Positions 3,776 through 46,719 of a stretch of DNA of 57,418 nucleotides are shown here, piece by piece. The DNA is from Chrysochromulina tobinii (Eukaryota). Within the stretch, counting starts at the first letter, position 1, and the number at the start of each line of letters is the position of its first letter. The notes beneath the pieces are model-generated. The model saw only the letters and a list, made by a program, of their open reading frames with translations, searched no databases and was not told where the DNA came from. The translations under genes and the position numbers were made by a program. The stretch lies in assembly GCA_001275005.1 (NCBI GenBank), contig JWZX01002380.1:1-57418 (forward strand). The letters run 5' to 3'.

Positions 3776-6700
3776 GTGGCGGCCGCCTGGCCGCGCTGGA
3801 TCAGATACTCCTTGAGCAGAGAGGAGTTGGCCGGGGTGCTGGGTAGCGGCGGGGCGCCCCCCTCCCGCGCCTCCCTCGATCTGGAGAGCTCCGTGGGGGC
3901 GCCGAGCTGGGCGCCGCCCTGGATCACGAGGGTGTGTGCATCGGGCGGGGGCCCAAAGGACGGGTGCGTCGCAGGCTGTCCACTCAGCTCGGCGGCCTTT
4001 CGGAACGGGTTGCCCCTGTGCACCCGCCCAGTGAACGCATGCCCTCCGGTGCCATTCGTGCCATTCGTGCCCGAGCGCGCCCCACCCGTCCCACCCGCCA
4101 CACCCGCCGCACCCGCCGTACTCGGACGGACGCGAGCTGGAGCCGTGCTGGGCGCCGAGCGGCTCAGGGGACGGCTCAGAGGTTCGACACTCAGCAGCTC
4201 GCCGAGATTGGCATCGAGATTCGTGTCGAGATTCTCGTCGCTCAGCAGCATGCCGCCGACGCCGCCGGCCGCGGTCGGTGCGCCAACCGGCGTGCAACCA
4301 CGCGCCGTCGTGAGCGCATACGAGCCCGCGGTCGAGCGTTGTCTTGGGCGCGGCAACGGCTCGTCGGGATGGTGGCGGCGGCGTGGGGCCGTCGCGGCCG
4401 TCGCCCAACATGGCGCGGGTACCTCGGCCGGCGGCGGCTCTGGAGGCGGGTAGAGGGCTTGCTGCGAATACGCTTGCTGCTTGTACGCTTGCTGCGCGTA
4501 ATACGTCTGCACGGCTGGCGAGGAGAGCGCCTGCTGCGAGTCAGGGTACATCAGGTGCTGTCCGTGGTACATCGGGTGCAGTCCGGGGTGCGTTGGCTGC
4601 GGCGGTGAGCAGCCGGCGTACCCCTGCGCGTCGCCCAACACAGCGCGCGCGTGCGCCTCAGCCTCTGGCGACGTGTGCTCGTCGGTCCAGTGAGGCTGCG
4701 CTGTGTTGGGCGCGTGGCTGAGCGAGGGCATGGGCGAAGGCGTGGGCAGCGCTGTGTTGGGCAACGGCTGCGCTCCGGCGACGCCGAGCTCATCGGCAGA
4801 TGGCATCTCCCGCGATCTCGCGTGCTCCAACGGCCGATCGTACCGCGGTCGAGCGCCGTCCCGAGCGCCGTCCCTGCCGAGCGAGGCGCCGTACCGAGCA
4901 CCACCCCCGCCCACGACGGTCGAGCGCTCCGGCTCGGCAGGGTCGGCGCTCGTTACGGCGCCCACGCTCGGTACGGCGCTCAGCCCGCCGATGCGTAGGC
5001 AGGCGCACGCGTGCCTCGCCGCCTCGACGGCCTCATGCAGGGCCTCGTTCTCGCTCTGCAGCCGCTCGAGCCGCTTCTCATCCTCCTCGGCCAGCCGACC
5101 GCTCCCCTCCGCATCGGCCGGGTGGACGCCGTCCCGAGCATCAGCGCCGTCCCGAGCACCAGCGCCGTCCCGAGCGTGTAGCACGATCGCTGCGCCGGCG
5201 CTGACCGACTCGCTGTGCACGAGCGTCCTCTCAGACAAGGCCATCGCCTCCTCCGCCGTCGCCATGGCCTTCGACGCCGTCGCCATCGCGTCGCCGGCGC
5301 CCGCCTCCCCCTGTGGAAACGGCGCCTCCCCCTGTGGAAACGGCCACGGACGCACTGCGTCAGCCTCCGCGGCGGCAGCGAGCCCGGCCCGCACCGCCGC
5401 GGCCGCCTCCATTTTGGCACGCACGCTCGAGCCCGCGCTGTGAAGCATCTTGTTCACACGCTCCATGGCCTGGGCCTTGGTCCGGTGCCTGAGGAGCTCG
5501 CCTGTCTGCGACGAGAGCTTGTCGCGTCAGATGCAATCCAGTGGCAATCAGATGTAATCAAGGGGCCATCAGTGGCCCTCACCTGCTTCGATAGCTTGTC
5601 GCGCAGCTCGTTGCGCTCGCGCTCGAGGGCAGCGTTCTTAGCCGCCAAGGCCGCGAGGCCATCGCTCAGCCCTCGCATCTCGCCCATCGCGAGATCGCGC
5701 CGGCGCTCGTATGCGGCGGCCTCGCGCCGCCACGGGCGCCCCGCCTCCTTGGCCCAGCTGGTGCTCACGCCGAGCACAATCACGAGCACCTGCTTCATCC
5801 GATGCAATCCAGTGGCAATCAGATTTAATCCAGTGGCAATCCGATGCAATCAAGTGGCCGAGCACAATCACGAGCACCTGCTTCAAGAGCGTTCATCAGA
5901 TGCAATCCAGTGGCAATCAGATGCAATCATGTGGCCATCAGATGCAATCAAGTGGACGAGCACCTCGCCAGCGTCCATCGCGGGGAAGCTGCTGCCACCG
6001 CCGGCGCCGTCCTGGGCGCTCTCGACGCTGGTCAGGTAGGTGCGCCTGAGGTCGAGCGCGCACACGGGTGGGAAGACCGCATCGGCGCGGCTCTCGTACT
6101 GCGACAACCACGAGATGTCGGCCGCCCGGTCGACGGCGCTTTGCTCGAGCTGCAGCACGGTCTGCGCGCCCGCGACGACGCTCGCAAAGCTCATCGCATG
6201 CTGCCGACTGCTGGTGCAGGCAAGCACGCCCCACTCGACGCCCGCGACGGCGCCCGCCAACGCGGCACCTCCGCTGCCGCTGCTCGTCAACGGGGCGGCG
6301 GTGGCGCCGCCGCTCACCGGCAAGGGCGTCGTGCCGGGCGTGACGAGGGGATGGGACGGTGCCGCGCTGTGTTGGGCGGCGCCTGGCGTCGGCAGGCCAG
6401 CGGCAGGCGGCGCGCGGTACAAGGGTGTCGAGGCCTCCGCGATGCGCCCGAGTTTGCCCAGGCACGCCGCGAGCGTGTGCAGCGTCGCCGGGTACGCGTT
6501 CGCGCGGTTGGTGACCTCAAACGCGCGCGCGAGCTCAGCGGCCGCGCGGCCGAAGCGCGCGGCCGCATACTCGCCCAAGACGGCGCGTCGCTCGTCGGCG
6601 GGCAGCTTGGCGAGGCGCGCCGTGCCGAGCGCGCGCAGCGCCACGTTGTACTTGGCCTGCAGATGCAATCAGATGCAGTCAGGTGCAGTCAGATGCAGTC

Positions 6701-8865
6701 AGATGCAATCAGATGCAATCAGCTGCAGTCAGATGCAGTCAGCTGCACTCAGAGGCACTCAGAGGCACTCAGATGCACTCAGAGGCACTCAGCTGCATTC
6801 AGATGCAATCATCTGCACTCAGCTGCACTCAGCTGCACTCAGACGCAAAAAGCTGCACTCAGAGGCAATCAGCTGCACTCAGTGGCACCTCGCCGCACGG
6901 TCCTGTGAAGAGGCGCGCCGCTGTGAACTCTGCGTCGCTCAGGTTGGACTCGCCGAGTTTTCGTAACCGCACGCCCACGCGCTTGCGCCCCGCGACGAAG
7001 CGCTCAGCACGGCGCGCGAGCGGTTCGCGCGGGAGCCACGCGCCCTTGGGGGCGTGCCCCGTCGCCTGATGAGGGAGGTCATCAGTGGTCATCAGAGGTC
7101 ATCAGGGGTCATCATCATCATTGGGGGCGTGCCCCGTCGCCTGATCGATGGTGGCGGTGGTCATCAGTGGTCATCAGTGGTCATCAGTGGTCATCAGTGG
7201 TCATCAGTGGTCATCAGTGGCCATCAGTGGTCATCAGTGGTCATCAGTGGCCATCAGTGGTCCTCAGTGGTCATCAGTGGTCATCAGTGGTCATCAGTGG
7301 CCACACGCCTGATCAATGGTGGCGATGGGTCGGTACGTCTCCGTCGGCCAAGCTCCCGGCATCAGGCCCAGGCGCTCGCGCGCCGTGTCGAGCGCCTCGC
7401 GGTCCGCCTCCGTCGCGCCTCCGTCGATGCCCCCCTCCATGGTCGGGTCCACCACGAACCACCACTCCACACACGAGGTCGTGTGCACGCCATACGTGCC
7501 CGCGAACACGAGATGCGCATCTGGCCCGCTCGTGTGTTCATGCCGCATCGCCTCGAGGGTCAATACGCCTTCCTCGAGGCCTCCTACGAGCCCGTGGAGC
7601 CCGCTGAAAAAGTCCGACGGCCCACCGAGCACTGAGGCACGCCCGAGGCGCTCGAAGCTCTCCGCCTCAAACTCGCGCGCTGGAACGAAGCGCTTGCGGG
7701 GGCGCGCGCGCGTCAGATGGGACTGTGGAGGCGCCGTGCCGGGCTCGGCCGTTGAGCCGCTGACCTCTTCGGCCACAGACTGCTGTGAAGGCTGCTGTGA
7801 AGGCTGGTGTGAAGGCTGCTGTGAAGACGGCTCCGAGATCGGCTCCGTGGGCTCCTCAGCCGACGAGGCCTCGGCCGCCCCGGCGCCCGGCACGGCGCCC
7901 GGCACGGCGCCCGGCACGGCGCCCGGCACGGCGCGTTGGCGCGCCGCTCGTTCCGCCAGAGCGTGTGCGCGCGCCTCGGCCTGCCCATGCAGCAGCTGGG
8001 CGCGTGCCACCACGCGCTGCGCCACCAGCCCGAGCAGGTCGTCGCCTGCGCCTCCCTCGGTGAGCATGCTCTTGACGAGCGCGCGCGCCGTGCTGAGCGC
8101 CCCCTCGTGCGCGAGCGCGCCGCCGCCGCTTGCGAGCGCGCCGCCGCCGCTTGCGAGCGCGCCGCTGCCGCTTGCGAGCGCGCCGAGTTCTCTCACGAAC
8201 TCCCTCTCGAGCGCACACAGCTGCGCCTCGGCCTTGGCAGGCGCCGGATCGAGCGCGAGGCGCTTCGAGCTGCGCTGGAGATACCGGCGCACGCTCAGCC
8301 GATCGCGAAGCAGCGCGGTGAGCTCGAGGCCCTCCAGCCAAGCACCGAGCTGCCACCGCGCCGGCGAAGCGGCGGCGACCTCGAGCGCAGTCTCGCCAAC
8401 GTAGTCCGACACGGCTCGGAGCTCCGCCTCGGCCGCGGCCGTCGCCCGGCTGACGGCGGCGGTCAGAGACGCCTCCAGTGCCTCCGAGCGCGCTCCGCGG
8501 CCGAGCTCGGCGCGCAGCCGCGCCACCTCTGCGTCGCGCTCGCGCAGCTTCTCCTCGCTCGCGTGCAGCCTGTCCTTGGTCTCGCGCATCTGCCTAGAGA
8601 GCAGCGACTTATCGGAGCGCGCCAGAATCTCCGACAGCTGCTCCTCTTCGACTTCCGGCCTCTTTGGCTTGGCAGCGGGCGCGGCCTGCTGCGGCGCCGC
8701 CTGCGCCGAGCGCAGCTTGATGCGAAGCGACGCATTCTCCGCCTTTATGCTAAGCATCTCCGACAGAGATGTCTTGAGGCTGCTATTCTCCTCGACGAGT
8801 CGCTGGTAAGCCATGTGCAGGCGCTGCAGCTCGTTGACCAGCTCGGTGGCAGTGTCGAGTGACAT
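3748..8865 (-). CDS. About 1463-aa protein: N-terminal coiled coil, degenerate ARTC-type (R-S-E) mono-ADP-ribosyltransferase-like domain, coiled coil and disordered C-terminus
   Basis: Exons 8865-7309, 7065-6889, 6656-5964, 5789-5583, 5505-3748 (all phase 0, frame closes). Motifs FFSGLHGLVG..EAMRHEH..YGVHTTSCVEWWFV, RLFTGP..KYNVALR..NAYPATLH..LYRA..GVEWGVLACTS..DRAADISWLSQY match algal ART-family proteins as I recall them. Confidence 0.75.
5506..5582 (-). other. 77-nt GT-AG intron with CTGATTGC array; acceptor supplied by a copy of the upstream exon end
   Basis: The exon ends GCGACAAGCTATCGAAGCAG|GT and the intron ends GCGACAAGCTCTCGTCGCAG|ACA. Confidence 0.8.
5790..5963 (-). other. 174-nt GT-AG array intron with a 10-nt flanking duplication (AGGTGCTCGT) and an internal copy of acceptor plus exon start
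   Basis: GAG|GTGCTCGT ... CAG|GTGCTCGT; internal copy at about 5857-5886. Confidence 0.8.
6657..6888 (-). other. 232-nt GT-AG intron made almost entirely of 10-mers (CTGAGTGCAG/CTGATTGCAT/CTGACTGCAT)
   Basis: Splicing joins FTGPCGE|AKYNVALR in frame. Confidence 0.85.
7066..7308 (-). other. 243-nt GC-AG array intron containing a copy of its own spliced junction
   Basis: (ACTGATGACC)n arrays flank CGCCACCATCGATCAG-GCGACGGGGCACGCCCCCAA at 7121-7156. Confidence 0.8.
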
Positions 8866-9046
8866 GACGGTTGCGGCCGTTCGTTACATGAAAATTCGGT
8901 CCTCGTATGAGGGGTTACCTGGAGCAGACATCCGTGCTTCAGAAATGTTAGTTCTGACGGGGTCATCAAGTTTCGTTCCGTGCCCGCGCAGGGGCGTCGC
9001 GTTGCGAGACGAGTGCTTGCTTGCGTGAAGCTCCTCTCGGATCCGG

Positions 9047-10180
9047 ATGAGCCGGACTCTGGAGGCTCAGGCAGAGCACGCGCCCCGTGCAAGGTGGCCG
9101 ACCCCCCCAAGTGGAGAGTACGTTCATGATGTGGCATACGACTACTACGGCCAGCGGGTGGCGACGTGTTCTTCCGATAACACGATAAAGATCTTCAACG
9201 AGCACGGTCGCAAGGTTGCCGAGTGGAGAGCGCATGGTGGCTCCATCTGGCGACTCTCGTGGATGCATCCCGAGTTCGGGGTGGCGCTGGCCTCCTGCTC
9301 CTTTGACCGCAAGGTGTGCGTCTGGGAGGACGTGGCCGATGCCGAAGAGGCAGCTGCGCAGCTCGACAGTGCAGCCGGCCGCGTGGCGTGGACACGCACC
9401 GCCGAGCTCGCCGATGCGCGCGACTCGGTGGTGGATGTGCAGTTTGCGCCACACCACCTTGGCGTGCGCCTCGCCTCTTGCAGCATGGACGGATTTGTGC
9501 GCATCCACGAGGCGGCCGACGTGCTCGACTTGTCCACGTGGGAACGGCACTCGGACTTCCATGCGGCGGCCGACACAGCCGCCTCCAAGGAGGGCGCGGG
9601 CGGCGCCGAGGCTGGAGGCGAGGGCGGCTACGCAGGCACCAGTCCTCTTTGCCTGTCTTGGTGCCCTTCGATCGTTGAGAACGAGCCGATGCTCGTGGTC
9701 GGCCTCTCCGACGGCTCTGCAAGGCTCTGGCGAGGCCACGAGAGCAGCTGGTCCTGCGTGCTCAGCCTGGGCCTCGGCGGCGCCCGCTGCCACGCCGACT
9801 GCGTGCGCTCGGTGAGCTGGGCCATGGATGCGGGCCGCTCGTACCAGCTCGTCGCCACAGCGTCGCGCGACCAGACGGTAAAGCTGTGGGCTTTGCGACG
9901 CACATCGGTGGCCGAGGAAGACGATGCCGCGGGCGCTGGGCCCGAGGGCGGCGGAGGCGCTGGCGCCGGTGGCGCCGTTAACCCCCCTGCGGATGCCCTC
10001 GGCGACGGATGGAGCGCAAGGTGCTGCGCCGAGCTGCCGCATCGTTCGCAGGTCTGGCGTGTCTCTTGGAACGCAACCGGATCGATGCTCGCTACGTCGG
10101 AAGATGATGGCACTGTGACCGTCTACCAAATGGACGCAACCGGCGGTTGGCGCTTCGCCAGGCCTGTGGCCTGCCAGTGA
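9047..10180 (+). CDS. SEH1: Nucleoporin/GATOR2 WD40 protein SEH1
   Basis: HDVAYDYYGQRVATCSSD, WMHPEFG..LASCSFDR, DVQFAPHHLG, GRSYQLVATA, VWRVSWNATG; intronless. Confidence 0.9.
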   Translation: MSRTLEAQAEHAPRARWPTPPSGEYVHDVAYDYYGQRVATCSSDNTIKIFNEHGRKVAEWRAHGGSIWRLSWMHPEFGVALASCSFDRKVCVWEDVADAEEAAAQLDSAAGRVAWTRTAELADARDSVVDVQFAPHHLGVRLASCSMDGFVRIHEAADVLDLSTWERHSDFHAAADTAASKEGAGGAEAGGEGGYAGTSPLCLSWCPSIVENEPMLVVGLSDGSARLWRGHESSWSCVLSLGLGGARCHADCVRSVSWAMDAGRSYQLVATASRDQTVKLWALRRTSVAEEDDAAGAGPEGGGGAGAGGAVNPPADALGDGWSARCCAELPHRSQVWRVSWNATGSMLATSEDDGTVTVYQMDATGGWRFARPVACQ

Positions 10181-10266
10181 AGAGCCATTAGTGCCATCAG
10201 TGCCATCAGTGCCATCAGTGCCATCAGTGCCATTAGTGCCAGGCCTGTGGCCTGCCAGTGAAGAGC
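10157..10266. repeat. 29-bp direct duplication spanning the SEH1 stop, flanking a (GTGCCATCA)n 9-mer array
   Basis: GCCAGGCCTGTGGCCTGCCAGTGAAGAGC at 10157-10185 and 10238-10266. Confidence 0.95.
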
Positions 10267-29166: not shown

Positions 29167-31491
29167 ATGTTGACCCAGCGAGCCATACCGCACGTGCAGC
29201 CGCTGCTGCCCTCTGGTGCCTCCACCAGCCCGGGCGCAACGCGGCTCGCCGTCTCGGAGAGCATGCACGTCATCCTCGTCGCCAAAGGCCATGCCATCGA
29301 CTGCTTTGACCTTCAGATGTCCTTCCTATGCACGGCCCGGTTGCCTTCGCCGGCTGTCGAGCTGAGGTTTTCGCCGCACGACTCTAGCCTCCTCGCTGTC
29401 GGGACGGCTGCCGGCGATCTGCTCCTGATGCGCCTCCGCCGGGCGCCAGCGGATGGGCAGCTCGTGCTCTTCCACATCTTGCAACAGTGGAGCATGCGAC
29501 CCGACGCGGCTCCGCTGACGGCCGCCGCGCCGGCCGATGTCGTGCGCTTCCACCCGTCACGTGACGACCTCCTCGCAGTCGTCTGCAGTGGCCAAGTGCG
29601 CCTCCTCAGCCACGGCCTTGGCAAGCTCGCGATCTCTTCGCCTTGCTGCCGTGTGGATGACGACGGCGCTCACGACGGCGCCATCGCCACGACGATCACC
29701 TGGTGCGGCTCGCTGCTCGCTGTGGGCCGCGCGAGCGGCGCCGTGCACCTGTGGCGCGTCGACGTGCCGCAGCGCTCCGACACACGAGCGGGCCTCGCGC
29801 TCGAACTGTCCCTCGGGGCGCAAACTCTCGTGAGCGCACTCCCAGCGCCTCCCACACGTTCGTCAGGCTCGTCAGGCTCGTCAGGGGTGCGCTGCCTCCG
29901 CTGGATGCCCTCTGATATCGAGGGGGAGGCCGAGGGCTCCGCGGGCGTGCTTCTCGTCGGCGACGAACCCAGCCGACTGCGAGCCTTCCTGCTGCCCTCT
30001 GCATGGTCCACCTCGGCCCATGGAGCCAACGGCGCTCAGTTGCTGGCCAACTTGCCTACTGGTCCTCTGCCCGGCGCGAGCGCCTTGGCGCACGTGAGCG
30101 AGCCACTCACGCTGGGTGCGCACATCGGCGGCGAGCTGCGCGCGACCATCGCGCTCTCCGAATGTGACGAATCTCGGCGGCCGGACGATGTGACGAAACT
30201 TCGCACCTTCGAGGTGAGCCACCCTCGCTGGCTTCTGCTATCCGGGCCGGGCTCGCCATGCCTCTTCGCGATGCCCTACGGCCAGCCGACGACGGCGGAC
30301 GCGCATCCCGCCCAACACGACGCGCATCATCCCGCCGCCGCGGCGGTACGCTTTCCGACGCCGACGGAATTGCTGTGCGCGCCCAACGTCGTCCTCGAGC
30401 CGCCGCCGTGCCACGTGTACGGCCTGCACCGGATCGCCTCTCGCGACTGCCGTGCCCGGGTCCATGCACGGATGATGGCCTCGACAGAGAGCCTGGCGGA
30501 GCCCGACACGGCGCCCAAGATGCCCGACACGGCGTCCATGAAGCCCGACACGGCGCCGACCCATCTTGGAGAAGGCACGGAGCTGCTGCTCGTGTTGAGC
30601 GACGTCGCGCTCCATGTCGTCCAACTGCGCGCGGACCCGGCGGGCATGCTCACGACGGCGCGCCACGCGTCCGAGCCGACCGAAGGGCCCAAGCTGAAGC
30701 CCAAGATGCCCGGCACGGCGCCACCGCTGGGGCGCGCGCCGCCGCCGCCGCCGCCGCCCGCACGTCCAGAGAAGCCGTACCCACAGCCGCTGGTCGCCCA
30801 CCTGCTACCCGCCGCGCCTCGTCGGCCAGAGGGGCCCACGACGGCGCCCGTAACGGCCGGCCGTGAGGCGTCGGCGCGGCCGGTTGTGCCCACGACGGCG
30901 CCCGTAACGGCCGGCCGTGAGGCGTCGGCGGTCGTCGACACCCACGACGGGCTCGTCCCCGGGTCGAATGCTGCCCTGCTCGCTCAGGTGACGAGCTGAT
31001 GGCCCCCGATTGCATGCTGATTGCGCCCGATTGCATGCTGATTGCCCCCCGATTGCATGCTGATTGCGCCCTATTCGAATCTGCTCGCGAAGGTGGCGGC
31101 TCTGGAAGCGCGCGCGCGCGGTGCAGAGGCCCGCGTCGCCGAGCTCCAAACCTCCTTCGATCTCTTCATGGCGCAGAGCCAGCAGCAGCAACAGCTCCTG
31201 CTGGTGGCGCTCGAGACGGCGCTCGAGAAGATGGCTGCCGAGCGCCGTCTCGGGCGCCTCTCCGCCGTCGGGGCGGCACAGGGAAGTGCACCCTACGACT
31301 CCGAAGCGTTTGCATTCACACCTCCTGGGTCCCGCCAGCGGCAGGGGCGCCCACCTGAGGCGTCGTCGTGGGCGGCCTTGGATTCGTCTGACGATTCAGA
31401 GCTGTCGCCATCGGATGCGTCGAACGAGTCGGAGCCGACGTCGGCGCCCATCTCCCCCACGCCCGTCGCGCGCATGCAAAATGCACGCTAA
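29167..31491 (+). CDS. WD40-like beta-propeller protein with a Pro-rich linker and C-terminal coiled coil
   Basis: ELRFSPHDSSLLAVGTAAGD, VRFHPSRDDLLAV, ITWCGSLLAVGRASGAVHLW; exons 29167-30987 and 31093-31491. Confidence 0.7.
30988..31092 (+). other. 105-nt array intron (CTGATTGC/CCGATTGCATG); acceptor from a degenerate copy of the upstream exon end
   Basis: CTGCTCGCTCAG|GTGACG ... CTGCTCGCGAAG|GTGGCG. Confidence 0.75.
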
Positions 31492-32061: not shown

Positions 32062-35000
32062 TCAGCAGAAGAGGTCGACCCGGACGCCGGCGGCATGGCT
32101 GCCACGTGGCCGCGCCGAGTCGAGCGCCGAGCAGCCGGCAGCGGGCTCGTTCACGGCAGCCACGTCGCTGTGAACCCAGCATTCGTAACGGCCATCGCGC
32201 GACCGCACCAGCCGACACGCGCTGCCGCGGGCGCCCAGCCGACACGCGCTGCCGCGGGCGCCGTCGCCGGCCGTTTCGAACGCACCCGCCGTTCCCAACT
32301 CGAGCGCCGTTCCGAGCAGCGGCGGGTGCAGCGGGCAGAGCACGTGGTCAAAGAGGAACTTGTACAAGAGCGTACGCACACGGTCGGTGCCGTACCGGAC
32401 GGAGCCCAACGGCCGCACCTAATGAGGGAGGTCATCAGAGGTCGTCAGAGGTCATCAGAGGTCGTCAGAGGTCATCAGAGGTCATCAGAGGTCATCAGAG
32501 GTCATCAAAGGTCATCAGAGGTCGGAGCCCAACGGCCGCACGTTGGTCAGGTGCTCACGCCGCCACGCGATGCTCTCGCTGACGGCGAGACCGTGCACGT
32601 CCATGCCGCCGACAGTACTGCCGCTGCCGCCAGCAGCGCCCGCCACAGCGCCCGAATACACGTGGCCTCCGCTCGCCACAGCGCCCGAATACACGTGGCC
32701 TCCGCTCCATGAGCTTACAAGCAGCCCGAGGAGCATCGGGCGGGCGGCGGGCGGCGCGGGCAGCAGCAGCGAGCGAGCCTCCTCCATCCGCGCGCGTAGC
32801 TGTGCATCGTGCGCGAGGTCGAGGAGGAGCACCTGATGAGGGAGGTCATCAGAGGCTCATCAGAGGTCATCAGAGGTCATCAGAGGTCATCAGAGGTCAT
32901 CAGAGGCTCATCAGAGGTCATCAGAGGTCATCAGAGGTCATCAGAGGTCATCAGAGGTCATCAGAGGTCATCAGAGGTCATCAGAGGTCGAGGAGTAGCA
33001 CCTCGGGCAACGAGTCGGCTGGTGCGGCTCGCAGCTCGTCGAGGAGTGCCAAAGGGCGTGCGTACCTGATGAGGATGGTCATCAGAGGTCATCAGAGGTC
33101 ATCAGAGGTCATCAGAGGTCATCAAGGAGCGCCAGAGGACGCGCGCACATGCATGCAGGCGTGGCCGCCACGACGTCGTAGAAGGTGCCGTCGGCGGGCA
33201 GGGGTGTGAACGGATAGGTGCTCGAGAGGACGCCCAGGTGATGAAAGCGCCACACGAGCGCGCCGAAGACTTTGATAGGCTCAGCAGCAGCCAATGGTAG
33301 TGGACGGCCAATGGAAGTGGACGGCCGATGGCAGTGGAGCGCCGTCGTGGGCGCCGGGGGCAGTGGACGGCCGATGGCTGTGGTGCTGGCGGACGCGAGC
33401 GACGAGGCGCTCACGACGGCGCTCGCGACGGCGCTCGTCGGCGCGCGCAGCTCGACGTGCATGCGCAGCATGCCGGCACGGCGCGGCACGAACTCGAAGG
33501 TGAGGTGGAGCGCCGTCGTGGGCGCCGGGTCGCGCGCCGTGTCGAGCGTCGCCAGGGAGTGCAGCAGCGCTTCGCCCTCGTCGACACCATCGTAGCGGCA
33601 GCACACCTGCATGCAATCAGCACGCAATCAATATGCAATCAGAACGCAATCAGCATTCACTCAGCATGCAATCAGTATGCAATCAGAATGCAATCATACT
33701 GCAATCAGCATGCAATCAGCACCCTCGTAGCGGCAGCATACCGCCGCGCGTGCAAAGGCCTCCGCACGCTCTCGTGCGGCGCCCGTGACGACGCCCAACT
33801 CAACGCCAGGACCGCTCCTGAGCCGCAGCTTGAGGTGGGCGTCGAGGCGCGCCGTCTCACCCTCGATAGCGCAGCGCAGCCTGATGGACAAGATCTCGAG
33901 GGCGGATACCTCAAAGTCAAACGCGGCTCCGCCCTCGAGATCTCCGCCCTTTGCGATCTCCGCACTCGAGATCTCAAAGTCAGACGCGGCTCCGCCCTCG
34001 GACAGCAGCGCCACGTCGCCGGGCGTGCGAGGATGCGACGAAACCCTCTGCTGGAGAGCGCCGTACTGATCGCCCTGAGCGTCGTAATGAGCGCCATGAG
34101 CGCCGTGAGCGTCGTCCTGAGCGCCCACCGCAACGCCATCGGGCTCCGTCCCCTTGAGCTCGACGCCCGTGGTGCTGCTCAATACGGCGCCCGGCGCTCC
34201 CAAATCGAGCACACGCACCTTGAGAGGCGTGCCTGCAATGAGGGAGCAATCAGCATGCAATCAGGGAGGCAATCAGCATACAATCAGGGAGGCAATCAGC
34301 ATGCAATCAGGGAGGCAATCAGCCTGCAATCAGGGAGGAAATCAGCATGCAAAGGCGTGCCTGCAATGCGATCGGTTCCGTTGAGGAGGACGGTGAGGTA
34401 ATGCAGGCCGGCGGTCTGCAGGTAGCCTTCACAGATGTAGACGCCCGCCTCGGCGCTCGGCGTGGTGGAGATGCGAGTGCCCGAGATAATACCCGAGGTG
34501 TTGCCCGAGGTAATGCCCGAAGTGGTGCTCGAAGGGCCGCTCACCTGCATCGGGGCAAGGCAACAACCCGCGGTCATCAGGGGCCATCGGGCGAAATTAG
34601 TAGCACTCCTAATGAGGCCATCATGAGCACACTCAGAGGCCATCCGCTCACCTGCACCTCAAGGCGGTCCTGCGCCGCGGGCCGTGCGTTACCGTACGTG
34701 TCGCACACGGCCACGGAGAAACGCAGCGCCGTGCCGAGCGCATGCGGCGCCGTGAGCAGCGGCCCGGCGGCTCGGACCTGATGAGGATGGTCATTAGAGG
34801 TCATCAAAGGTCATCAGAAGTCATCAGAGGTCATCAGAGGTCATCAGAGGTCATCAGAGGTCATCAGCGGCCCTGCGGCTCGGACCTTGCATGCAATGAG
34901 GGAGGCAATCAGCATGCAATGAGGGAGGCAATCAGCATGCAATGAGCAGCGGCCCGGCGGCTCGGACCTTGCATGCGGAGGCGGCGGCGGCGGCGGGCAA

Positions 35001-35614
35001 CACATTGAGAAAGTAGGGCGAGTCTCCAAGAGGGGCTGCCCCCTCCGAGCTACGGAAGAAGATGACGAGACGGCCCGAACGGACGGGCTGGAAGATGGCG
35101 CGGTAGGTGCCATCTCCGAGGCTCGAGATCCAAACGGCCACGTGGTCCTCGCCCGGGACGGCGTCTGCACGGAGCCCAGCCGCGGAGCTCACGACGACGA
35201 TCTCCACAGGGGAGATCGTGCCGCCCCCGCCGTTGCCGCCGTTGCCGCCGCCGCCGCCGCCGCCGCTTGCTCGCGGCTTGGAGGAGATGCGATTGCCGAA
35301 GCGATCACAGGCGCTGATGAGGAGTTCCTGACGCTCACCTGGGTTGACGAAGCTCATGAGTGGCAATCAATGACAATCAAGGGCAATCAAGGACATTCAA
35401 GGACCATCCTGGCGCTCACCTGCGATGGCGGTGCCCAAGCGCAGGCAGTCGCCGGTGAGGGTACAGTGCTCGGGCGACGGGGCGGCCGGTGAGACGAAAA
35501 TCGACGCCGGCGAGCCAGTGACGTCTACCCCGCCGTCGTCATCCACTAGAGCCGCCTCTCCACACAAACGATCAGTCCGCTGGCCGCCGTCGCCGCCGCC
35601 CTGCTCTCCTGGCA

Positions 35615-35654: not shown

Positions 35655-38600
35655 CTGCTCGCCTGGCACAGCTCCACGGTAGAGCTGCACCCGAAGCTCA
35701 TACGCCCCTGCCACCTCGCAGCACAGGCTCAGCTCATAGAGGCCAGCACGCACCTGATGAGGATGGTCATCATAAGTCATCAGTGGTCATCAGTGGTCAT
35801 CAGTGGTCATCAGCACAGGCTGAGCTCGTAGAGGCCAGCACGCACGTGGCGGATCGTCGGTGGCGGCAGCTCGGCACCTCGACGCCCGCTGAGCGACGCG
35901 CCGAAGTGAGCGCCTTCCGAAAGCGAGCACTCCACCCCCGCCGCGCTGCGTGCGATGACCTTGAAGTTGAGCGGTGTGCCTGCCACTGCACGGAGACGCC
36001 CGCCAGGTCGGGGGGTCGAAGAGCCTGCGCTCGCGCCCGCGACGGCGCCGTCGTCGATGCTGTTGCTGCTGCCGGCGCAGTCGCTGCTGGCGGTCGTGTC
36101 GAGAATGCACATGCGCGCCTCGACCGCCACCTTCTTTGCGCGCCTGCTGGCCGGCTTGGGCGAGCGACACAGCGCGGACCGCGCCGACTGGGTGCCACAG
36201 AGCACCAGCGTATGAGCGCCGCCGCATGCGACGCCGATGACCCTTACGGGCTCGACTACGTCGCCATCCTCTGTAGGCGCGCTCGAGGGGCGTTCTCGGC
36301 CTGGAGGTTCTCGATCTCGGGAGACCTCCATGCCGAGATCGAGGCCGAGATCGAGGCCGAGATCGAGGCCGAGATCGAGGCCCTCGAGAAAGGGGAGCGC
36401 CACACCTGCATGCAATCAGCACGCAATCAGCACGCAATCGAGGCCCTCGAGAAAGGTCCGCCCGGCACACCTCGCATCTCACTCGCAGCATCGCGCTCCA
36501 CCTTGGCGCCGCCGCCGCCGCCGCTGCTCGCCGCCACCGTACCGGTGCCGGTACGTAACGGTCGGCTGCCACCGGTAACCACAATGGCACCGGACGCGCG
36601 CGTGTGAGGCGTGGCAAGGCGCGCGGCCGCCTGCACGGTCGCGTGCATGGCGGCGGTTGGCTGGTCGAGTGGCTGATCGGACCCAAGGCGCCCTGAGCAC
36701 GACCTCCCCCATGAGATCACTCGGCCTGTGCGTGTCAAGGCGACCATGTGGTCCTCCGCACACGCCACCTCGGCTAAGGGATACGCCTCGACCGCCTCGA
36801 CAAGGCGTGGCTCGAGCTCATCGCCGCGCTGCGTGCCATGCCCGCATTGGTTCCAGGATCCACCTGGTGCGGCAATCAGTGGCAATCAGTGGCGATCAGT
36901 GGCAATCAGTGGCCATCAGTGGCCATCAGTGGCCATCAGTGGCAATCAGTTGGCAATTAGTGGCAATCAGTGGCAATCAGTGGCAATCAGTGGCAATCAT
37001 AGACAGGGCTTGGTCAGAGGCACTCAGTGGCAATCAAAGGCCACCGAGGCAATCAACGACACTCACTTCCCCAAGTCCATAACTGTCCCGCCTCGTCGAT
37101 GCACGCCGTGCACGCGCCGCCGCATGCAATCATCTGCACGCGCACGCCGGCAAGCGGCCCCAGCACCAACCGCGGCATGCGCTCGGAGCTGTTCAAGCCG
37201 TGCCCGAGTCGGCCATACCTGCATGCACAATCAGAGAGGCCATTAGCATGCCACATCAGCCATTAGCATGCACAATCAGAGGGAGGCGCCATCAGCATGC
37301 ACCATCAGCGAGGCCAGCATGCACAATCAGAGGGAGGCGCCATCAGCATGCACCATCAGCGAGGCCAGCATGCACAATCAGAGGGATGCCATCAGGGAGG
37401 TCATCAGCGAGGCCAGCATGCACAATCAGAGGGATGCCATCAGGGAGGTCATCAGCGAGGCCAGCATGCACAATCAGGGATGCCATCAGGAAGGTCATCA
37501 GAGAAGACACCAGCGAGGCCATCAGGGAGGCCATCACGCAGACCATCGGCAACCTATCAGCACGCAATCAGCACGCAATCGGCACGCAATCAGCACGCAA
37601 TCGGCACGCAATCAGCACGCAATCGGCACGCAATCAGCACGCAATCAGCACGCAATCAGCACGCAATCAGCACACAATCAGCACGTAATCAGCACGTAAT
37701 CAGCACACAATCAGCACGCAATCAGCACGCAATCAGCACGCAATCAGCATGCAATCACTCATACCTCCCCTCGCCCCAGGTGTACACGACGCCCTCATCG
37801 CGGGAGAGCGCGCAGCTGTGATAGTTGCCACAGGCGATCGCGCTACAGGCGACGCTCGCGAGCTCCGCCACGGAACTGGGCGTGAATACGTCGTGTGGCG
37901 CACGGACGGACGTCAATGTGAACACGTCGTGCCCATTTGGCGCGGCGACGCGCGGCTGCTCCTGCTCGGTGCCCAGCACAGCGCTCGATGGCCGCTCGTG
38001 CACGCTGCCCAGCCCGAGCTGCCCGAGCTCGCCCGCGCCGCACGCGAGTACAGCGCCCGGGCGCGAGAGGAAGAGCGTGTGCGCGAAGCCGCACGCGACC
38101 GCCACGACGCGAGTGCCGCTCAGCGCCGACAACATCTCCGGCCTGAGCACCAGATCGTCGTCGGCTGGCGTGCCGAGGCCCAGCTGTCCGTTGCTGTTGG
38201 AGCCGCACGCTAGGACGCGGCCGCGCGAGGTGCAAAAGACCGTGTGCTTCGCGCCGCACGCGACGCCCGCCAGCCGCTGCCCGTCGCACCCGATCGCTTC
38301 GGGCGTCATTCTCACGATCTTGTCCCCCATCCCAAGCTGCCCGTGCGCATTGTTGCCCCAGGCATGGGCGACGCCTTCCTCGTCGATGGCGACCGAATGG
38401 CTCGAGCCGGCCGCGATCAGGCGCACGCGGATGCCGCTCGTAAACATTGACCGAAGCGGCCGTGGCGCCGCACGCTCGACGCTGTCGCCCAGTCCGAGCT
38501 GCCCGTTGCCGTTCCAGCCAAAGGCAAAGCACAGACCGTCAGGAGATGCGGAGCTGCTCCACTCCTCACTGCGCTGTGGCGGAGGCGGAGGTAGCGCTGC

Positions 38601-40711: not shown

Positions 40712-40879
40712 ACATCAGCTGGTGCTCACGTCACGGGGTCCACCCAGAATTGGAAGTGTTAAATGATGCCAATTGTTAACACCCCTCGGCGCTCTGAACG
40801 GCGCTCCGATCTGATTTTCATGAGGACGGAGTTCTTCTTGCTGAACGTCGCGTCGACGTAAAGCACACCATAGCACCAC

Positions 40880-43051
40880 ATGGGCAGTAGTAGCAGCACG
40901 CCGAGTACTCCGGCAAAGGTGCTCCCGAGCCCACGGCAGTCGCTTCCGAGTCCACGGCTGGCTCCACCTCCGAGTCCAAGGCGGGCTCCACTACCGTCCG
41001 AAAGCAGCAGCAGCAGCAAGGCTGGAGCGCCGCCGCCGACGACGACTCCGCGGCTGGCCCCGCAGGAACTGCTCCTGCGGCTCGAGGGGCCAAAACTCGA
41101 GGCCCCACTCGAGCGGCTCTCCATTGCCGAGCTCCGTATCTTCATCGAGGTGGCCGAGCTCCCTATGCCGGAGGGCAAGCTCGAAAAGGCCGACTTGGTG
41201 ACTCGCGCGAGGTGTCTCGGACCGCTAAATGGCCTGCGGCCAGCGCAGCTCAAGCGGCTGATTGAGGCGACGGCGCACGAGCACTCCGGCTGCGTCGAGA
41301 AGGCCGAGCTGATCGCGTGCCTGCTCGCGGCCATCGAGGCCGGAGGCAAGGCGACGCGGGAGCGGCCCGTGACGGACGAGCACGGACTCGAGCCCGGCAA
41401 GAGTAACTTTCGTCTGGCGGCGCAGGAATGGAGCGAGCGCGAGCGCGAGCTGGCCGACGAGATGGCCGCGCGCGCGCGCACGGCGGCCGAGCGCTACCGT
41501 ACCGAAGAGACGCTCAAGGCGCGCGCGATGCTCGCAGCTGCCGAGGTGGAAGAGCAAAAGGAGGCCGAGGAGCGCGAGGCGGCGGCGGCGGAGAGGCGCT
41601 GGCTGCAGGAGCGCAAGGTGCTGCTGCAAGTGGAGGCAGCTAACCAACAGGTCAAGCTGCTCGAGAAGCGCCTCGCCCTCTAATGACCTCTAATGACCTC
41701 TAATGACCTCTGATGACGCCCTTGATTGCCTCCCTCATCAGGTCAAGCTGCTCGAGAAGCGCCTCGCCCTCGAGCATGAGCAGCAGAAGCGTCAGGCCGC
41801 CGAGCGCGATCATCTCGAGGCGAAGCTTCGAGAGGCGACCCAGGCTACTGTGAGGGCGCATGCCTCGGAGGCAGCCCACGCGGCCGAGTCGCAGATTACG
41901 CGCCTGCAGCTCGAGGACAACCAGCGCCAGATGGAGCAGCTGCAGGTGTGGATCCGGCGCTCCAAGGAGGGCCGCCTGATGACCTCTGATGACCTCTGAT
42001 GACCTCTGATGACGCCCTTGATTGCCTCCCTCATCAGGCCGAGCTGCACACGCTCCAGAAGCAGCATGAGCTCGAGAAGGAGATCTTGATCTCCTCCGCC
42101 AAGATTGCCGAGCAGCAGCAGCAGCAGGAGCAGGAGCAGCAGCAGGAGCAGGAGGAGCGGCTGCGCAGGAATGCGCCCTCGGAGCCGCCGCCGACGCCGC
42201 CCGCGTCGAAGCAGCAGCACCTGCTTCAGCTCCTGGCGGCGGGCCCTGCGCGTCCGAGGGCGGCTTCTCGTGACTCGGTGGCTTCCACTGCGGCGGCGAC
42301 CCCCGTGGCCACCAGCGCGGGGCCGTCAAAGTACTACAGCGACGAAGAGGAGGCGATGATGGCCTTGTACGCCGAGGCGGACCAGGCCGATCCGGAACGG
42401 GTGGATGAGGACGAGGCCGAGGCATTTGCGTCCCATCGACGTGCCATTGACGCCCTGGCCGCTGCGGCGACGCCTGCGCTCGATGCCCTGGCCGCATCCG
42501 CACCGAGGGGGCTGACAGGGGGGGGCGACACAGGGGGGGGCGACACAGGGGGGGTCGTGTCGCCCTCGTCTCGTGTGCAAGCACTGCTCAGCGAAACAGC
42601 CCCCGAGGGTACCTGGTCCGCCGTGCCGCACGCCCAGCAGCCGCCCAGCACGGCGCCGCTTGGCCTCGCCCAACTCGGCGCCCGGCCCAACACGACGCTC
42701 GGGGTGAGCCGGGGCTCGATGGACAGCGGCGCGCTCCTGAATCGAGGCGCCCAACACGGTGCCCAGCACGGCGCCGGGGGCGAGCCGCTGCCGAATACGA
42801 AGCAGCGCGTCGAGGCCGCGCTCGAAGCGCTCTACCGTAAGAACGGGGGTGAGGCGCCTGGGCTCCTGCTGCAGCAAGTTCGCATCCCGAACTCGCGCAT
42901 CCAACGGTTCCCCCGTCCAGGTGAGCCGCTCAGTACGGCGCTCAGCCCTCCGGACGCGGCGCTGCCGGTGACGTCGACTCTCTTGAGGGGCCTTGCCGCG
43001 TGGCCCTCGCCGTCGCCGGCCTCGCGGATGCCCTTGCCGGCCGAGCTATGA
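40880..43051 (+). CDS. About 662-aa coiled-coil protein with two SAP/HeH-like motifs
   Basis: LSIAELRIFI...LEKADLV and LRPAQLKRLI...GCVEKAELI; exons 40880-41650, 41742-41945, 42038-43051 (phase 0). Confidence 0.7.
41651..41741 (+). other. 91-nt intron: perfect 33-bp flanking duplication, (TAATGACCTC)n array and shared 3' terminus
   Basis: CAGGTCAAGCTGCTCGAGAAGCGCCTCGCCCTC at 41648-41680 and 41739-41771. Confidence 0.9.
41946..42037 (+). other. 92-nt array intron whose last 39 nt are identical to those of the preceding intron
   Basis: 41999-42037 equals 41703-41741. Confidence 0.85.
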
Positions 43052-44036: not shown

Positions 44037-46719
44037 CTACTCGCCGCGCGACCCTCGCGGTGTGCCTGAGCTCGTTGAGGAAGGCGACGCTCCGCCTAAC
44101 GCTCCGCCGGCGGCCTCGTCGTCAGGCCAAAGTAGCCATGCGACGAGGATGGTGACGTTGTCCATCGAGCCGCTGTCCATCGCCTTGCGCATGAGCGCGC
44201 GCGCCGCCGCGAGCGCGCTGCCGTGGCCGTCGACGTCCCCTCCGGGGGGAGGGGGATGCACTACGCCGCGCCCTCGCGCCGCGGTGCATGCAATCTGGAC
44301 AGCCTGCGAGTCATCGACCACATCCCACAGCCCATCGCTGGCCATGATGAGGAGCCGATCGTGCGGTGAGAGTTCGTGTGAGAGGACCTCGGGCTCGTGC
44401 GACACGAGGGGCACGCTTGTGCACCTCTTGAGCTCCCGGTTACCTGATGAGAGGGGCAATCAGACGTCATCAGAGCGAGGAGGGAGGCAATCAGACGTCA
44501 TCACGGTGGCCCTCTTGAGCTCCCGGTCACCGAAGGCGCGGCTGATGGCAAGCATGGTCGACGTGCAATCAAGGGCGTCATCAGAGGTCATCAGAGGTCA
44601 TCACCGAAGGCGCGGCTGATGGCAAGCATGGTCGACGTGCCCGGTGGACCGGTGACCCGCCAGCAGCCGTTAATCGAGCGAACAAAGCCGCCCGACGCGC
44701 GCACGCGCTCCGCCTCCTTGGGCAGGTCTGGCTTATGGTCGACGCTCAGCCGATGCGCTTCAAGCTCACGCTCACGCATCGAGCGGCCCGAGTTGCCGCT
44801 GAAGCGCGCGTGCGGCGCCGCCGGTTTGCGTCCGAGCACCGCGCGCGTGTCGCCGCAGTTGGCGACATCGAGGGTCGTCCCGCGCAGCAGGGCGCAGAGC
44901 ACGGTCGTGCCGTCCGTGAGCACCTTGCGTGTCGCGAGCTCGAGGAAGTCGGTGTCGACCTGTTTAACGCAGATGCACTCAGAAGCACTCAGAAGCACTC
45001 AGAAGCACTCGGATGCACTCAGAAGCACGCAGATGCACTCGGATGCACTCAGAAGCACGCAGATGCACTCGGATGCACTCAGATGCACTCAGGGCTCATC
45101 AGAGGGTCCTGCTCGACCTGTTTGAACGCCAACGTGAAGGCGCGAGAGACCGCCTCCGCCGGCACGGCCGCAAGGTCCAAAGTGGGTGGCGCTGTGGTGG
45201 GCACGGCCGCAAGGTCCAAAGTGGGTGGCGCTGTGGTGGGCGCGGGGCCCTCCGACGTGTCTGGAGGCGGCGGGAGCGCGGCAGGCGGCAGAGCGGCAGG
45301 CGGCGGGAGCGCGGCAGGCGGCGGAGCGGCAGGCGGCGGCGGAGCGGCAGGCGGCGACGCGACATGTGGCGCTGTGGTGGGCGCCAGAGAGCGGTATGTG
45401 AGCGCGGGCGCGTCGTCATCCAGCGAGCCCCGAAGCTCAGCGACCACTGCGGCTTCGGCCGCTGCCTCCGCCGTCGCCTCCGCCGCCGCCGCCTCATGCG
45501 TCAGCATGCATGTGCTCAAAACGGCGCCTCGACCACGGCGCGCATCGAAAGCGTCATCCAGCCATGCCGGAGCGTCGTGGTGAGCGTCATGGTCGAAGGC
45601 AGTGATCTCGTCCGCCTCGGGTGCAGCGCCAGGGCCTGCTGCGGCTCCTGCTGCGGCTCCTGCTGCTGCTGCGGCTCCTGCTGCGGCTGCGGCTGCGGCT
45701 GCGGCTGCGGCTGCGGCTCCTGCTGCGGCTGCTGCGGCGGCGGCGGCGGCGGCTTCTGCTGGTGGTGGTTCCGCTGCTGCTGCTTCTGTTGGCGCCGCCG
45801 CCGCTGCTGGCGCCGTTGCCGCCGCTGCCTGCTGCTGCTGCCGCTTCTTGCGCTCGCCTTTGCGCTCTTTCCACGCCTGCCAGGCGCCCTCGCCGTCAGT
45901 CGACTCGGGCTCCGTCTCGGTCACGTCATCCTCTGCCTCGACGGCACCACTGCCGCGCCGAGCCGCACTCGCACGGCGCGCATCGAAAGCGCCCTCCAGC
46001 CATGCCGGAGCGCGGCCACTCGCGGCCAAACCCGAAGGCTCACTCTCCATTTGAGACGGCGGCGCCGACGATCGCGGCGCCGACGACCGCGGCTCGCCCT
46101 GGGTGCGGCTCCACCAGCAACCAGGGCGCGTAGCAACCAGGTGCTGCTGGTGGAGCAGCTCGGCGGCAAGTGCAGCCACCAGGCGCCGCGGCAGCTGTGC
46201 CTTCGCGAAGTCGCAGCAGTTGATGCCGCCGTGCCCGTCGAGCACGCTCAGGTACGAGGCACCCTCAAGGCCAGCGTGCAGCTCGCCCAGGTTGGCGACG
46301 ACATCGTGCCGGTCCTCCATGTACGGCCGCCTGCCTTGAGCTTCGACGACAGCCCACGCGAGGCGCGGGCCCGCCGAAGCGTCGGCGGCGGCGCCAGGCG
46401 TGGAGGGCAGTGGTCCAGCAGCAGCTGCAGCGGCGGCGGGCGCGGAGGCCTGGGGCTCGCTCGAGGGAGCGGGTGCGTCACCCGACGGGGAGCAGCGCAG
46501 AAGCTTACGCGCACGCATCTGGCTGGAGCTCCCCGCCGGCGTGGGGCCGGCATGATCGAATCGAGCCGCTGTCACGTCAGCCAGTGAACGTGCGGGCTGC
46601 TCAGCGCCAGTCTCCTCAAGCTCCTCGGCAAAGGAGAGCAACAAGCCGGCTTTGCGCGCCTTGAGCTTGGGCCTGGTGACAGCTGGTGCCGTTGTGGCGC
46701 CAGCCATGCTCGCTTCCAT
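44037..46719 (-). CDS. PP2C/PPM-family Ser/Thr phosphatase with a large low-complexity insertion (about 787 aa)
   Basis: QGRRPYMED, DGHGG, GTT, VANCGDTRAVL, LSVDHKP, LAISRAFG, IMASDGLWDV, GSMDNVTI; exons 46719-45118, 44959-44605, 44443-44037. Confidence 0.92.
44444..44604 (-). other. 161-nt array intron containing a 56-nt copy of its spliced junction
   Basis: 44511-44566 joins the upstream exon end to the downstream exon start. Confidence 0.85.
44960..45117 (-). other. 158-nt (CTGAGTGCAT/CTGAGTGCTT)n intron with flanking duplication
   Basis: GCGTTCAAACAG|GTCGA ... GCGTTAAACAG|GTCGA. Confidence 0.85.

What the first reader, a model, noticed from the sequence alone, without database searches (positions are those of the whole stretch)
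5506..45117. Candidate intron-generating system: microsatellite-array insertions whose flanking exon duplications supply the splice sites
Seen: 23 introns in 6 unrelated genes share one design, a tract of 10-11-mers (TCTGATGACC, CTGATTGCATG, CTGATTGCCA, CTGAGTGCAT). About 20 also carry a direct duplication of adjacent exon sequence, 7-56 nt long. Examples: a perfect 33 bp at 41648/41739, 35 bp at 35754-35845, CATTGCAGGCACGCCT at 34233-34360 and TGCAGGTGAGCGG at 34545-34651. The duplicate provides the GT/GC donor, the AG acceptor or both, so splicing restores the pre-insertion reading frame exactly. Known: 10-11-bp intronic tandem repeats and GC donors are reported for Emiliania, and Introner elements in other algae co-opt short fixed-length target-site duplications. 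Inference: duplication lengths vary and there are no terminal inverted repeats or constant body, so this is not a classic Introner transposon. It looks like break repair with repeat filler, or a templated repeat-adding activity, that creates new introns.
Basis: partly seen in the sequence, partly recalled or inferred. Interest (0 to 1): 0.93.

Follow-up and report, generated by a model that had tools for sequence, protein, structure and literature searches.

The report
Introns that seed new introns
In a Chrysochromulina alga, many introns are a short copy of the gene's own sequence plus a repeat-rich piece like the ends of its other introns, are present in some relatives and cleanly absent in others, and are likely made by DNA break repair that copies from existing introns, which gives a living test case for where introns come from.

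Summary
Real, and an active intron-gain process. The 23 introns in 6 genes are there; 19 carry a duplication of 10 nt or more. RNA contigs fit nine junctions of the RCC1 gene, five by exact length. The organism belongs to the Chrysochromulina tobinii/parva group. Relatives lack the introns: the 33-bp example and its neighbour are empty in a sister lineage at 93% protein identity, three RCC1 introns at 85%. Near-identical alleles show three presence/absence sites with one target copy, one hit twice independently. Corrections: fillers share a near-constant 3' end; a second, non-repeat filler family works alike; some duplications only re-duplicate older introns. Duplications run 13-60 nt, junctions show microhomology, fillers are patchworks sometimes copied from the neighbouring intron, and no two are alike end to end. 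Best reading (0.55): break repair by template switching from existing introns, filtered by selection. Rival (0.22): reverse transcription of intron RNA. Not a classic Introner. The scan noted this footprint before on another piece of this genome (e1-2577349).

The parts
7066..7308 (-). A1/A2 compound intron, GC donor; two nested duplications (23 and 25 nt), CTGATGACCA array, CCTCCCTCATCAG end
   Evidence: not bridged by RNA, and two RNA runs read 32 nt into it
6657..6888 (-). A3 intron, CTGAGTGCAT/CTGATTGCAT array, no duplication beyond AG|G
   Evidence: frame only
5790..5963 (-). A4 compound intron, nested duplications of 10 and 29 nt
   Evidence: frame only
5506..5582 (-). A5 intron, upstream-exon duplication (about 21 nt, degenerate) supplies the acceptor
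   Evidence: this acceptor opens the frame to 1463 aa, the one at 5502 does not
23586..23776 (-). B1 intron in amino-acid permease; older intron with a later 42-nt re-duplication of exon end plus donor
   Evidence: relatives P0280 and P0272 have the intron without the re-duplication; position unbroken in 6 of 6 more distant homologues
22789..23036 (-). B2 compound intron, nested duplication of 36 nt, two CCTCCCTCATCAG ends
   Evidence: unbroken in 5 of 5 alignable homologues
30988..31092 (+). C1 intron, 15-nt duplication, unusual AAG acceptor taken from the duplicate
   Evidence: frame only, acceptor untested
37219..37764 (-). D1 intron (RCC1/filamin gene), long mixed arrays, 7-nt duplication
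   Evidence: RNA contig removes D1+D2 = 749 nt exactly
36864..37066 (-). D2 intron, CTGATTGCCA array, no duplication
36406..36470 (-). D3 intron, 65 nt, duplication with a 2-nt indel
   Evidence: RNA piece ends at 36466
35754..35845 (-). D4 intron, 35-nt duplication supplies a C|GT donor
   Evidence: RNA piece differs from the intronic copy at its 2 mismatches
35339..35419 (-). D5 intron, 16-nt duplication supplies both sites
   Evidence: RNA pieces of 3 runs end at 35331
34778..34967 (-). D6 compound intron, three target copies (27-30 nt)
   Evidence: RNA contig removes D6+D7+D8 = 425 nt exactly
34545..34651 (-). D7 intron, 13-nt duplication; older, shared with the 85%-identical relative
   Evidence: P0325 begins with a translation of this intron's tail
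34233..34360 (-). D8 intron, 16-nt duplication, GC donor; empty in P0325 and P0047
33607..33741 (-). D9 intron, 23-nt duplication; empty in P0325 and P0047
   Evidence: RNA pieces of 3 runs end at 33740; one DNA unitig spans both copies with 0 differences
33066..33148 (-). D10 intron, decayed 24-nt duplication (5 mismatches); empty in P0325 and P0047
32833..33001 (-). D11 intron, 20-nt duplication, CTCTGATGAC array
   Evidence: collinear with P0047; no RNA bridge seen
32419..32541 (-). D12 intron, 19-nt duplication, C|GT donor
   Evidence: no RNA bridge seen
41651..41741 (+). E1 intron, perfect 33-nt duplication; empty in the sister lineage
41946..42037 (+). E2 intron, no duplication; last 39 nt identical to E1 and found nowhere else in held loci; empty in the sister lineage
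44960..45117 (-). F1 intron (PP2C-like gene, label from motif by eye), 11-nt duplication supplies both sites
   Evidence: an RNA piece ends at 44954 with 78 letters going on elsewhere
44444..44604 (-). F2 compound intron, nested duplications of 40 and 21 nt
   Evidence: frame only
10157..10266 (-). Array plus 29-nt duplication, antisense to the SEH1-like gene, spanning its stop codon; not spliced
   Evidence: RNA contigs of 2 runs read into it unbroken
3630..3778 (+). Two array fillers plus 35-nt duplications, antisense to gene A, spanning its stop codon
12319..12427 (+). Two array fillers plus duplications, antisense to the gene on the minus strand, replacing its last codons; kept in a spliced RNA contig

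Best explanation
New introns arise in this alga as a 13-60 nt duplication of exon sequence with a filler matching the 3' part of existing introns, and they are likely made by error-prone break repair that switches template by microhomology. Shown: the anatomy, splicing of nine junctions, empty sites in relatives and alleles, microhomology at the filler's 5' junction, fillers copied from a neighbouring intron in two cases. Inferred: a staggered break or gap in a transcribed exon is filled in (giving the duplication) while one end copies a few tens of bases from an intron nearby or elsewhere (polymerase-theta-like end joining; enzyme not tested). Inferred: selection keeps sense-strand inserts whose duplicate starts GT/GC (donor) and whose filler or duplicate ends in AG, with total length above about 60 nt, so splicing restores the mRNA; antisense inserts survive at stop codons. 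Each new intron is a further template and a further target, so the family seeds itself without a transposon.
For: Anchored duplications after family acceptors: 57 of 157 (array family) and 20 of 36 (non-array family) against 0.3% and 0.6% in permutations. Lengths continuous, 13-60 nt in 72 events; duplication and filler length anticorrelated (rho -0.40, n=59). 5' junction microhomology 2.6 nt against 1.25 expected (17 testable of 60, p=6e-4). 70 distinct 5' ends in 72 fillers, 0 of 1549 pairs alike end to end. Many fillers carry no acceptor (window A1, B1, D8, F2). Local copying: 31 nt identical to the intron 123 nt upstream, best match elsewhere 18 (L040); E1/E2 share 39 nt found nowhere else in held loci; 4 of 35 pairs under 500 bp share 25 nt or more against 2.3%. 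The L040 filler is a patchwork of upstream exon, target and neighbour intron. Two different inserts at one site (L016, L040) beside an empty allele (L069). No reverse transcriptase, transposase or endonuclease among 224 long ORFs scanned.
Against: No enzyme or repair pathway was tested. Most fillers are not locally templated: 1 of 4 polymorphic inserts has its best match next door, and enrichment vanishes beyond 500 bp. The copy begins within 3 nt of the acceptor AG in 46 of 94 cases and true foreign-exon carry-over is rare, and the last 20 nt fold into a hairpin ending at the AG: both fit a defined RNA end. Arrays are gene-sense (274 of 285 neighbouring pairs agree) and absent from about 11 kb of intergenic DNA (gene bounds set by eye), which random DNA repair does not explain without coupling to transcription. 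About half of the arrays have no detectable duplication. The ORF scan covers about 0.5 Mb, not the genome.
Confidence: 0.55

Rival explanations
1. RNA-templated insertion: a reverse transcriptase (LINE-type in trans, or a repair polymerase) primes at a nick and copies excised or nascent intron RNA from its 3' AG; second-strand joining by microhomology gives a variable duplication and a truncated 5' end.
For: Near-fixed 3' end with free 5' end; variable 13-60 nt duplication as in target-primed reverse transcription (recalled); terminal hairpin CTGATGA/TCATCAG, 5 bp or more in 135 of 204 ends; sense and gene-body bias; some fillers end at AG although the target does not start GT.
Against: Many fillers lack an acceptor; three antisense inserts in the window; patchwork fillers; all 19 non-array fillers run 10-61 nt past the putative branch point (motif recalled), so not a lariat-blocked copy; no compensatory change in the hairpin; no RT in 224 ORFs.
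Confidence: 0.22
2. A short non-autonomous mobile element (Introner, SINE-like) with a conserved 3' end inserts with a target duplication, and its arrays expand afterwards.
For: Two recognisable filler families with conserved 3' modules; same splice-site logic as Symbiodinium and Polarella classes that carry the 3' site and co-opt the 5' site; polymorphic insertions.
Against: No fixed duplication length, no shared 5' end, no end-to-end copies, inverted matches at most 7 nt; neighbour-specific tails; a published screen of a C. tobinii assembly found 0 families, though it removed satellite-driven families.
Confidence: 0.1
3. The introns are older and the duplications are later scars: slippage next to unstable arrays, or aborted intron loss copied from spliced mRNA or an intron-less allele; empty alleles are precise losses between the direct repeats.
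For: True for B1 and for many re-duplications (57 of 157). The three allele-level sites have no outgroup. In gene D 8 of 10 copy differences looked synonymous by eye.
Against: D8-D10 are empty in two successive outgroups while D7 is shared; E1's copies are identical although the empty lineage is 7% diverged in protein; two unrelated fillers at one site; antisense inserts cannot descend from an intron; paralogues share about 1 of 10 positions (read by eye); synonymous excess did not hold overall (26 of 64).
Confidence: 0.1
4. The duplications are assembly artefacts at repeat edges.
For: All assemblies seen are probably short-read; two other assemblies differ from the window in D1 array length (by about 50 nt) and one in a 54-nt exon repeat.
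Against: Copies differ by substitutions; a DNA unitig spans D9 with both copies; two other assemblies give the same duplications; RNA keeps the downstream copy; environmental alleles share or lack them cleanly.
Confidence: 0.03

Closest known systems
Break-repair neointrons of Daphnia pulex (PMC4202315, passages; PMC3443670, passages)
   Same: Recent polymorphic gains, direct repeats read as staggered-break repair, parallel gains at one site, repeated internal events that lengthen young introns.
   Different: There the filler source is mostly unknown and repeats are described as short; here the filler is recognisably other introns of the genome, the duplication is 13-60 nt and itself supplies the splice sites.
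Introners that carry the 3' site and co-opt the 5' site from the TSD (Symbiodinium, Polarella classes 4-6, 8, 10; bioRxiv 10.1101/2020.10.14.339549 parts 1-2 of 4; PMC9860276 section 7)
   Same: Donor from the duplicated target, acceptor from the insert, AG|GT or AG|GC at both ends, mRNA restored.
   Different: Those have class-specific TSDs of 3-8 nt, defined ends, often TIRs; here length is continuous, 5' ends differ and no copies match end to end. The marine Chrysochromulina Introner of that paper has a 4-bp TSD and the reverse logic.
Tandem genomic duplication at AG|GT (PMC3443670, passages)
   Same: Duplicated exon sequence provides donor and acceptor (D5, D7, D8, F1).
   Different: The duplicate alone is too short here; filler from other introns supplies length, branch-like motif and usually the acceptor.
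Local intron transposition in Oikopleura (mentioned in 10.1101/051292 part 1 of 2, and PMC3443670; original paper not seen)
   Same: A new intron resembles a neighbouring one.
   Different: Here only the 3' part is copied, with a long target duplication, and most templates are not local.
Unclassified Emiliania huxleyi introner families, e.g. fam24 with '10bp terminal direct repeats', co-opt 5' carry 3' (PMC12130899 supplement rows)
   Same: Haptophyte, short, same splice-site logic, mechanism unknown; may be a glimpse of the same process.
   Different: 5 copies, automated TSD of 2 nt; sequences not seen, so identity with this system is untested.

Membership tests
Introner (TIR DNA transposon type) | Fixed short target-site duplication per family | tested here: not met
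   13-60 nt, continuous, in 72 events
Introner (TIR DNA transposon type) | Terminal inverted repeats | tested here: not met
   Longest inverted match between first and last 20 nt is 2-7 nt in 66 fillers (mean 5.2, shuffled 3.7), explained by unit/acceptor complementarity
Introner (any) | Copies alike from end to end | tested here: not met
   0 of 1549 within-family pairs at 90% or more; sample is about 1% of the genome
Introner (any) | Recent presence/absence polymorphism with mRNA restored | tested here: met
   splicing
Non-LTR retroposon (SINE/LINE, TPRT) | Variable TSD, fixed 3' end, 5' truncation with microhomology | tested here: inconclusive
   Met for acceptor-bearing fillers, not for the many fillers without acceptor; selection alone also fixes the 3' end
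Non-LTR retroposon (SINE/LINE, TPRT) | Autonomous RT element or master copy sharing the tail | tested here: inconclusive
   None among 224 of 492 long ORFs scanned in about 0.5 Mb; no whole genome held
Break-repair (NHEJ/MMEJ) intron gain | Direct repeats flank new introns above chance | tested here: met
Break-repair (NHEJ/MMEJ) intron gain | Junction microhomology and templated, patchwork filler | tested here: met
   (17 testable junctions only)
Break-repair (NHEJ/MMEJ) intron gain | Dependence on a break and on the repair enzyme | not testable with these tools
   needs induced breaks or mutants
Tandem genomic duplication | Intron consists of duplicated exon sequence alone | tested here: not met
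   filler median 52-57 nt, not from the exon
Intron transposition by reverse splicing | Whole intron copied, no target duplication | tested here: not met

The most novel reading that the evidence does not exclude
Spliceosomal introns here are self-propagating without any transposon: intron RNA (excised or nascent), ending in a small hairpin at the AG, is the preferred template when breaks in transcribed exons are repaired, so every intron breeds new ones at protosplice sites. This would be a new class of intron-generating system that Introner screens filter out.
Probability: 0.25. Interest if true: 0.94.

Novelty: new variant of a known kind. Interest (0 to 1): 0.82.

Why it matters
Where new introns come from is an open question, and the favoured answer for bursts of gain is transposons. 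Here gain is ongoing, polarised by outgroups, polymorphic in wild alleles, and leaves both a long target scar and a traceable filler, with no sign of a discrete element. A screen of 8,716 genomes scored a C. tobinii assembly as having no introner families and removed satellite-driven candidates, so a route like this would be missed by design. The species group has sequenced strains and many environmental alleles, so repair versus reverse transcription can be tested directly. It also bears on annotation: a public gene model in the gene E cluster reads into E2 and ends in array-derived peptide.

Tried and rejected
Whole genome: none held; records behind the loci are not held either. Viral contigs: 0 matches to the tail. 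The joints table of the first read-laying was swamped by repeat junk, so junctions were taken from piece coordinates; depths there are no copy numbers. The second laying did not bridge any gene A intron. Idea that copy differences are mostly synonymous (copying from a diverged allele): suggested by gene D, not supported overall, 26 of 64 against a neutral bound of 45%, frames inferred. Idea that templates are mainly local: only a minority. Hairpin under structural selection: no compensatory changes. Dropped rows: L060, L080, L095 (possibly other organisms) and 48 of 241 anchors followed by more array; one 'de novo' row at a contig end, L023:3174. The alt models with zero-length exons mis-translated through a script bug; merged models are the ones cited. 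The last homologue search gave one hit. Literature searches showed no description of this system in haptophytes; subscription papers are mostly not searched, files 13-14 of the PMC12130899 supplement were not searched and the PMC9860276 file was cut when stored.


Full report
Observation. The window is 65% GC with tandem 9-12-mers built on CTGAT/CTGAG. Core motifs lie on the sense strand of the gene they interrupt (190 on minus, 32 on plus). Modelling gives 23 introns in six genes, counting compound ones once: gene A (no Pfam hit in exon 1) 4, amino-acid permease 2, gene C 1, RCC1/filamin gene D 12, gene E 2, PP2C-like gene F 2. Removing them opens all six frames. 19 of 23 have a duplication of 10 nt or more, D1 has 7 nt, A3, D2 and E2 have none.

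Organism. Clusters at 90% identity of window proteins include members named Chrysochromulina tobinii and C. parva; homologues of the permease are haptophyte.

Splicing. In RNA run X14 one contig has 293 letters where the genome has 718, and D6+D7+D8 sum to 425; another has 150 where the genome has 899, and D1+D2 sum to 749. Piece ends match D3, D5 (3 runs) and D9 (3 runs); at D4 the RNA differs from the intronic copy at exactly its two mismatches. So nine junctions are supported, from assembled contigs and not raw reads. D10-D12, B1, B2, E1, E2 are supported by collinear homologues. A, C and F2 rest on frame alone. Against: two RNA runs read 32 nt into A1, which may be unspliced RNA or DNA.

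Not artefacts. A DNA unitig spans D9 with both copies and no difference. Two other assemblies of 22.8-42.8 kb agree on the duplications but differ in D1 array length and one exon repeat.

The introns are new. Gene E: 10 of 14 fetched cluster members (15 listed of 20) are single ORFs through both E1 and E2, on contigs of 2.2-11.5 kb; three checked are 93% identical. Gene D: P0325 (85%) starts with a translation of the D7 intron tail, so it is genomic and shares D7, yet reads through D8, D9 and D10; P0047 and P0144 (46%, 1284 aa, contigs of 12-18 kb) read through all 12 positions. Parsimony makes D8-D10 gains after D7. B1 and B2 are unbroken in distant homologues but present in close relatives, and the 42-nt duplication in B1 is missing from P0280 and P0272, so it was added to an older intron.

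Still polymorphic. 33 alignments of overlapping loci (40.7 kb aligned, 93-100% identical) gave three clean sites: 73 nt in L069 against L016, 79 nt in L016 against L069, 84 nt in L042 against L024 and L108, each with one target copy in the empty allele. L040 has a different 112-nt insert at the second site. Empty alleles are open frames; the inserts break them unless spliced. There is no outgroup for these sites. Re-duplications at existing introns were more frequent. A paralogue pair shares about one of ten positions (by eye).

Anatomy across loci. After family acceptors, the following sequence recurs upstream in 57 of 157 array-type ends and 20 of 36 ends of a second, non-array family (GCATGCAAGTGCTCACCACGGCGCC...CCCCACAG), against 0.3-0.6% in permutations and 3-8% with a shifted control. 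134 of 157 are followed by GT or GC, with or without a visible duplication. Of 384 arrays in 476 kb, 191 have a flanking duplication against 7%. Lengths run 13-60 nt; introns start near 60 nt and peak at 70-80; duplication and filler lengths trade off. 38 of 53 array fillers share the last 13 nt, but 70 of 72 differ at the 5' end and none match end to end. The 5' junction has excess microhomology. Of 157 duplication-bearing arrays, 57 contain older intron sequence, 37 have the acceptor in the filler, 11 have both sites in the duplicate and 52 fell in a mixed class that includes misclassified rows. The acceptor tail TCATCAG is the reverse complement of the unit CTGATGA and folds as a 7-bp hairpin ending at the AG, without compensatory changes.

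Templates. The L040 insert copies 31 nt, including 4 nt of exon, from the intron 123 nt upstream, and also holds patches of the upstream exon and the target. E1 and E2 share 39 nt seen nowhere else in held loci. But the other three polymorphic fillers match best elsewhere or nowhere, and pair similarity is raised only under 500 bp.

Orientation and place. 274 of 285 neighbouring arrays share a strand. The window has none in about 11.3 kb between genes against 27 in 42.8 kb of genes (P about 0.0008, bounds by eye). Three antisense inserts all overlap a stop codon region, and two are kept in RNA contigs: insertion does not need splicing, and selection shapes what remains.

Mechanism. Shown: duplication plus intron-derived filler creates spliced, lineage-specific introns. 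Inferred: fill-in of a staggered break with microhomology-led template switches, as known for polymerase-theta end joining (recalled; one search gave a search listing only), best explains variable length, free ends, patchwork and neighbour copying (0.55). Reverse transcription of intron RNA better explains the sharp 3' end and the gene-sense bias (0.22). A discrete element (0.10), older introns with later scars (0.10, true for a subset) and artefact (0.03) follow. No RT, transposase or endonuclease was found in 224 of 492 long ORFs.

Known systems. It works like Daphnia break-repair gain (PMC4202315 passages) and uses the splice-site logic of dinoflagellate Introners, but fails Introner membership on TSD length, TIRs and end-to-end identity. 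PMC12130899 lists 0 families for C. tobinii and three of unknown mechanism for Emiliania, and removed satellite-driven families (passages and supplement rows). PMC9860276 lists Introners in marine Chrysochromulina genomes, its example with a 4-bp TSD. The C. tobin genome paper mentions introns once (passages); PMC8379373 raises haptophyte intron gain as open (passage). Ten searches showed no description of this system.

Verdict. A real, active intron-generating process; a new variant of duplication-and-repair gain in which existing introns are the filler. Interest 0.82.

Noticed in passing
window 11958-12295 (minus strand): A 338-nt GT..AG intron without arrays, spliced in 3 RNA runs, downstream of the stop codon; it holds its own 22-nt internal duplication with a filler resembling the upstream exon end.
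   Followed up: partly
window about 1000-1108 (plus strand): A further intron-like end CCCCTCTCATCAG|GT outside the finding's range, in the decapeptide-repeat gene.
   Followed up: no
window 25728-25755 (plus strand): The second-family motif GCATGCAAGTGCTCACCACGGCGCC without its acceptor lies inside the long ORF of a homeobox gene; possibly an exonised or failed insert. Similar cases in L005 and L020.
   Followed up: no
window 44444-44604: After splicing, the PP2C-like motif reads FGNRELK while the intronic copy keeps the usual GD codon; likewise B2 leaves F where homologues and the intronic copy have V.
   Followed up: partly
L036 about 10000-10230 and L037 5814-6031: Paralogues about 80% alike share one intron position, and there the acceptor plus about 120 nt of exon are nearly identical, as after gene conversion or intron transfer.
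   Followed up: partly
L066 3050-4862, L065, L111, L113, L119: Tandem units of about 380 nt, each a long array, the CCTCCCTCATCAG end and a constant stretch of about 107 nt with an in-frame-looking stop; a satellite built from an intron end, or a candidate source locus.
   Followed up: no
L055 1106-3250 against L005: A 2.1-kb insertion in the environmental allele, unrelated to the arrays; its long ORF has no Pfam hit at 1e-10.
   Followed up: partly
window 57345-57416 (minus strand): A short CTGAGTGCAT-type tract with a 10-nt repeat at the window's end, context unknown.
   Followed up: no
window, whole: Intron-free genes (Rad21, kinase, sugar transporter, Asp/Asn hydroxylase, EF-hand protein) sit beside genes with 4-12 such introns; spacing of arrays is clumped (CV 1.76 in 350 gaps).
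   Followed up: partly
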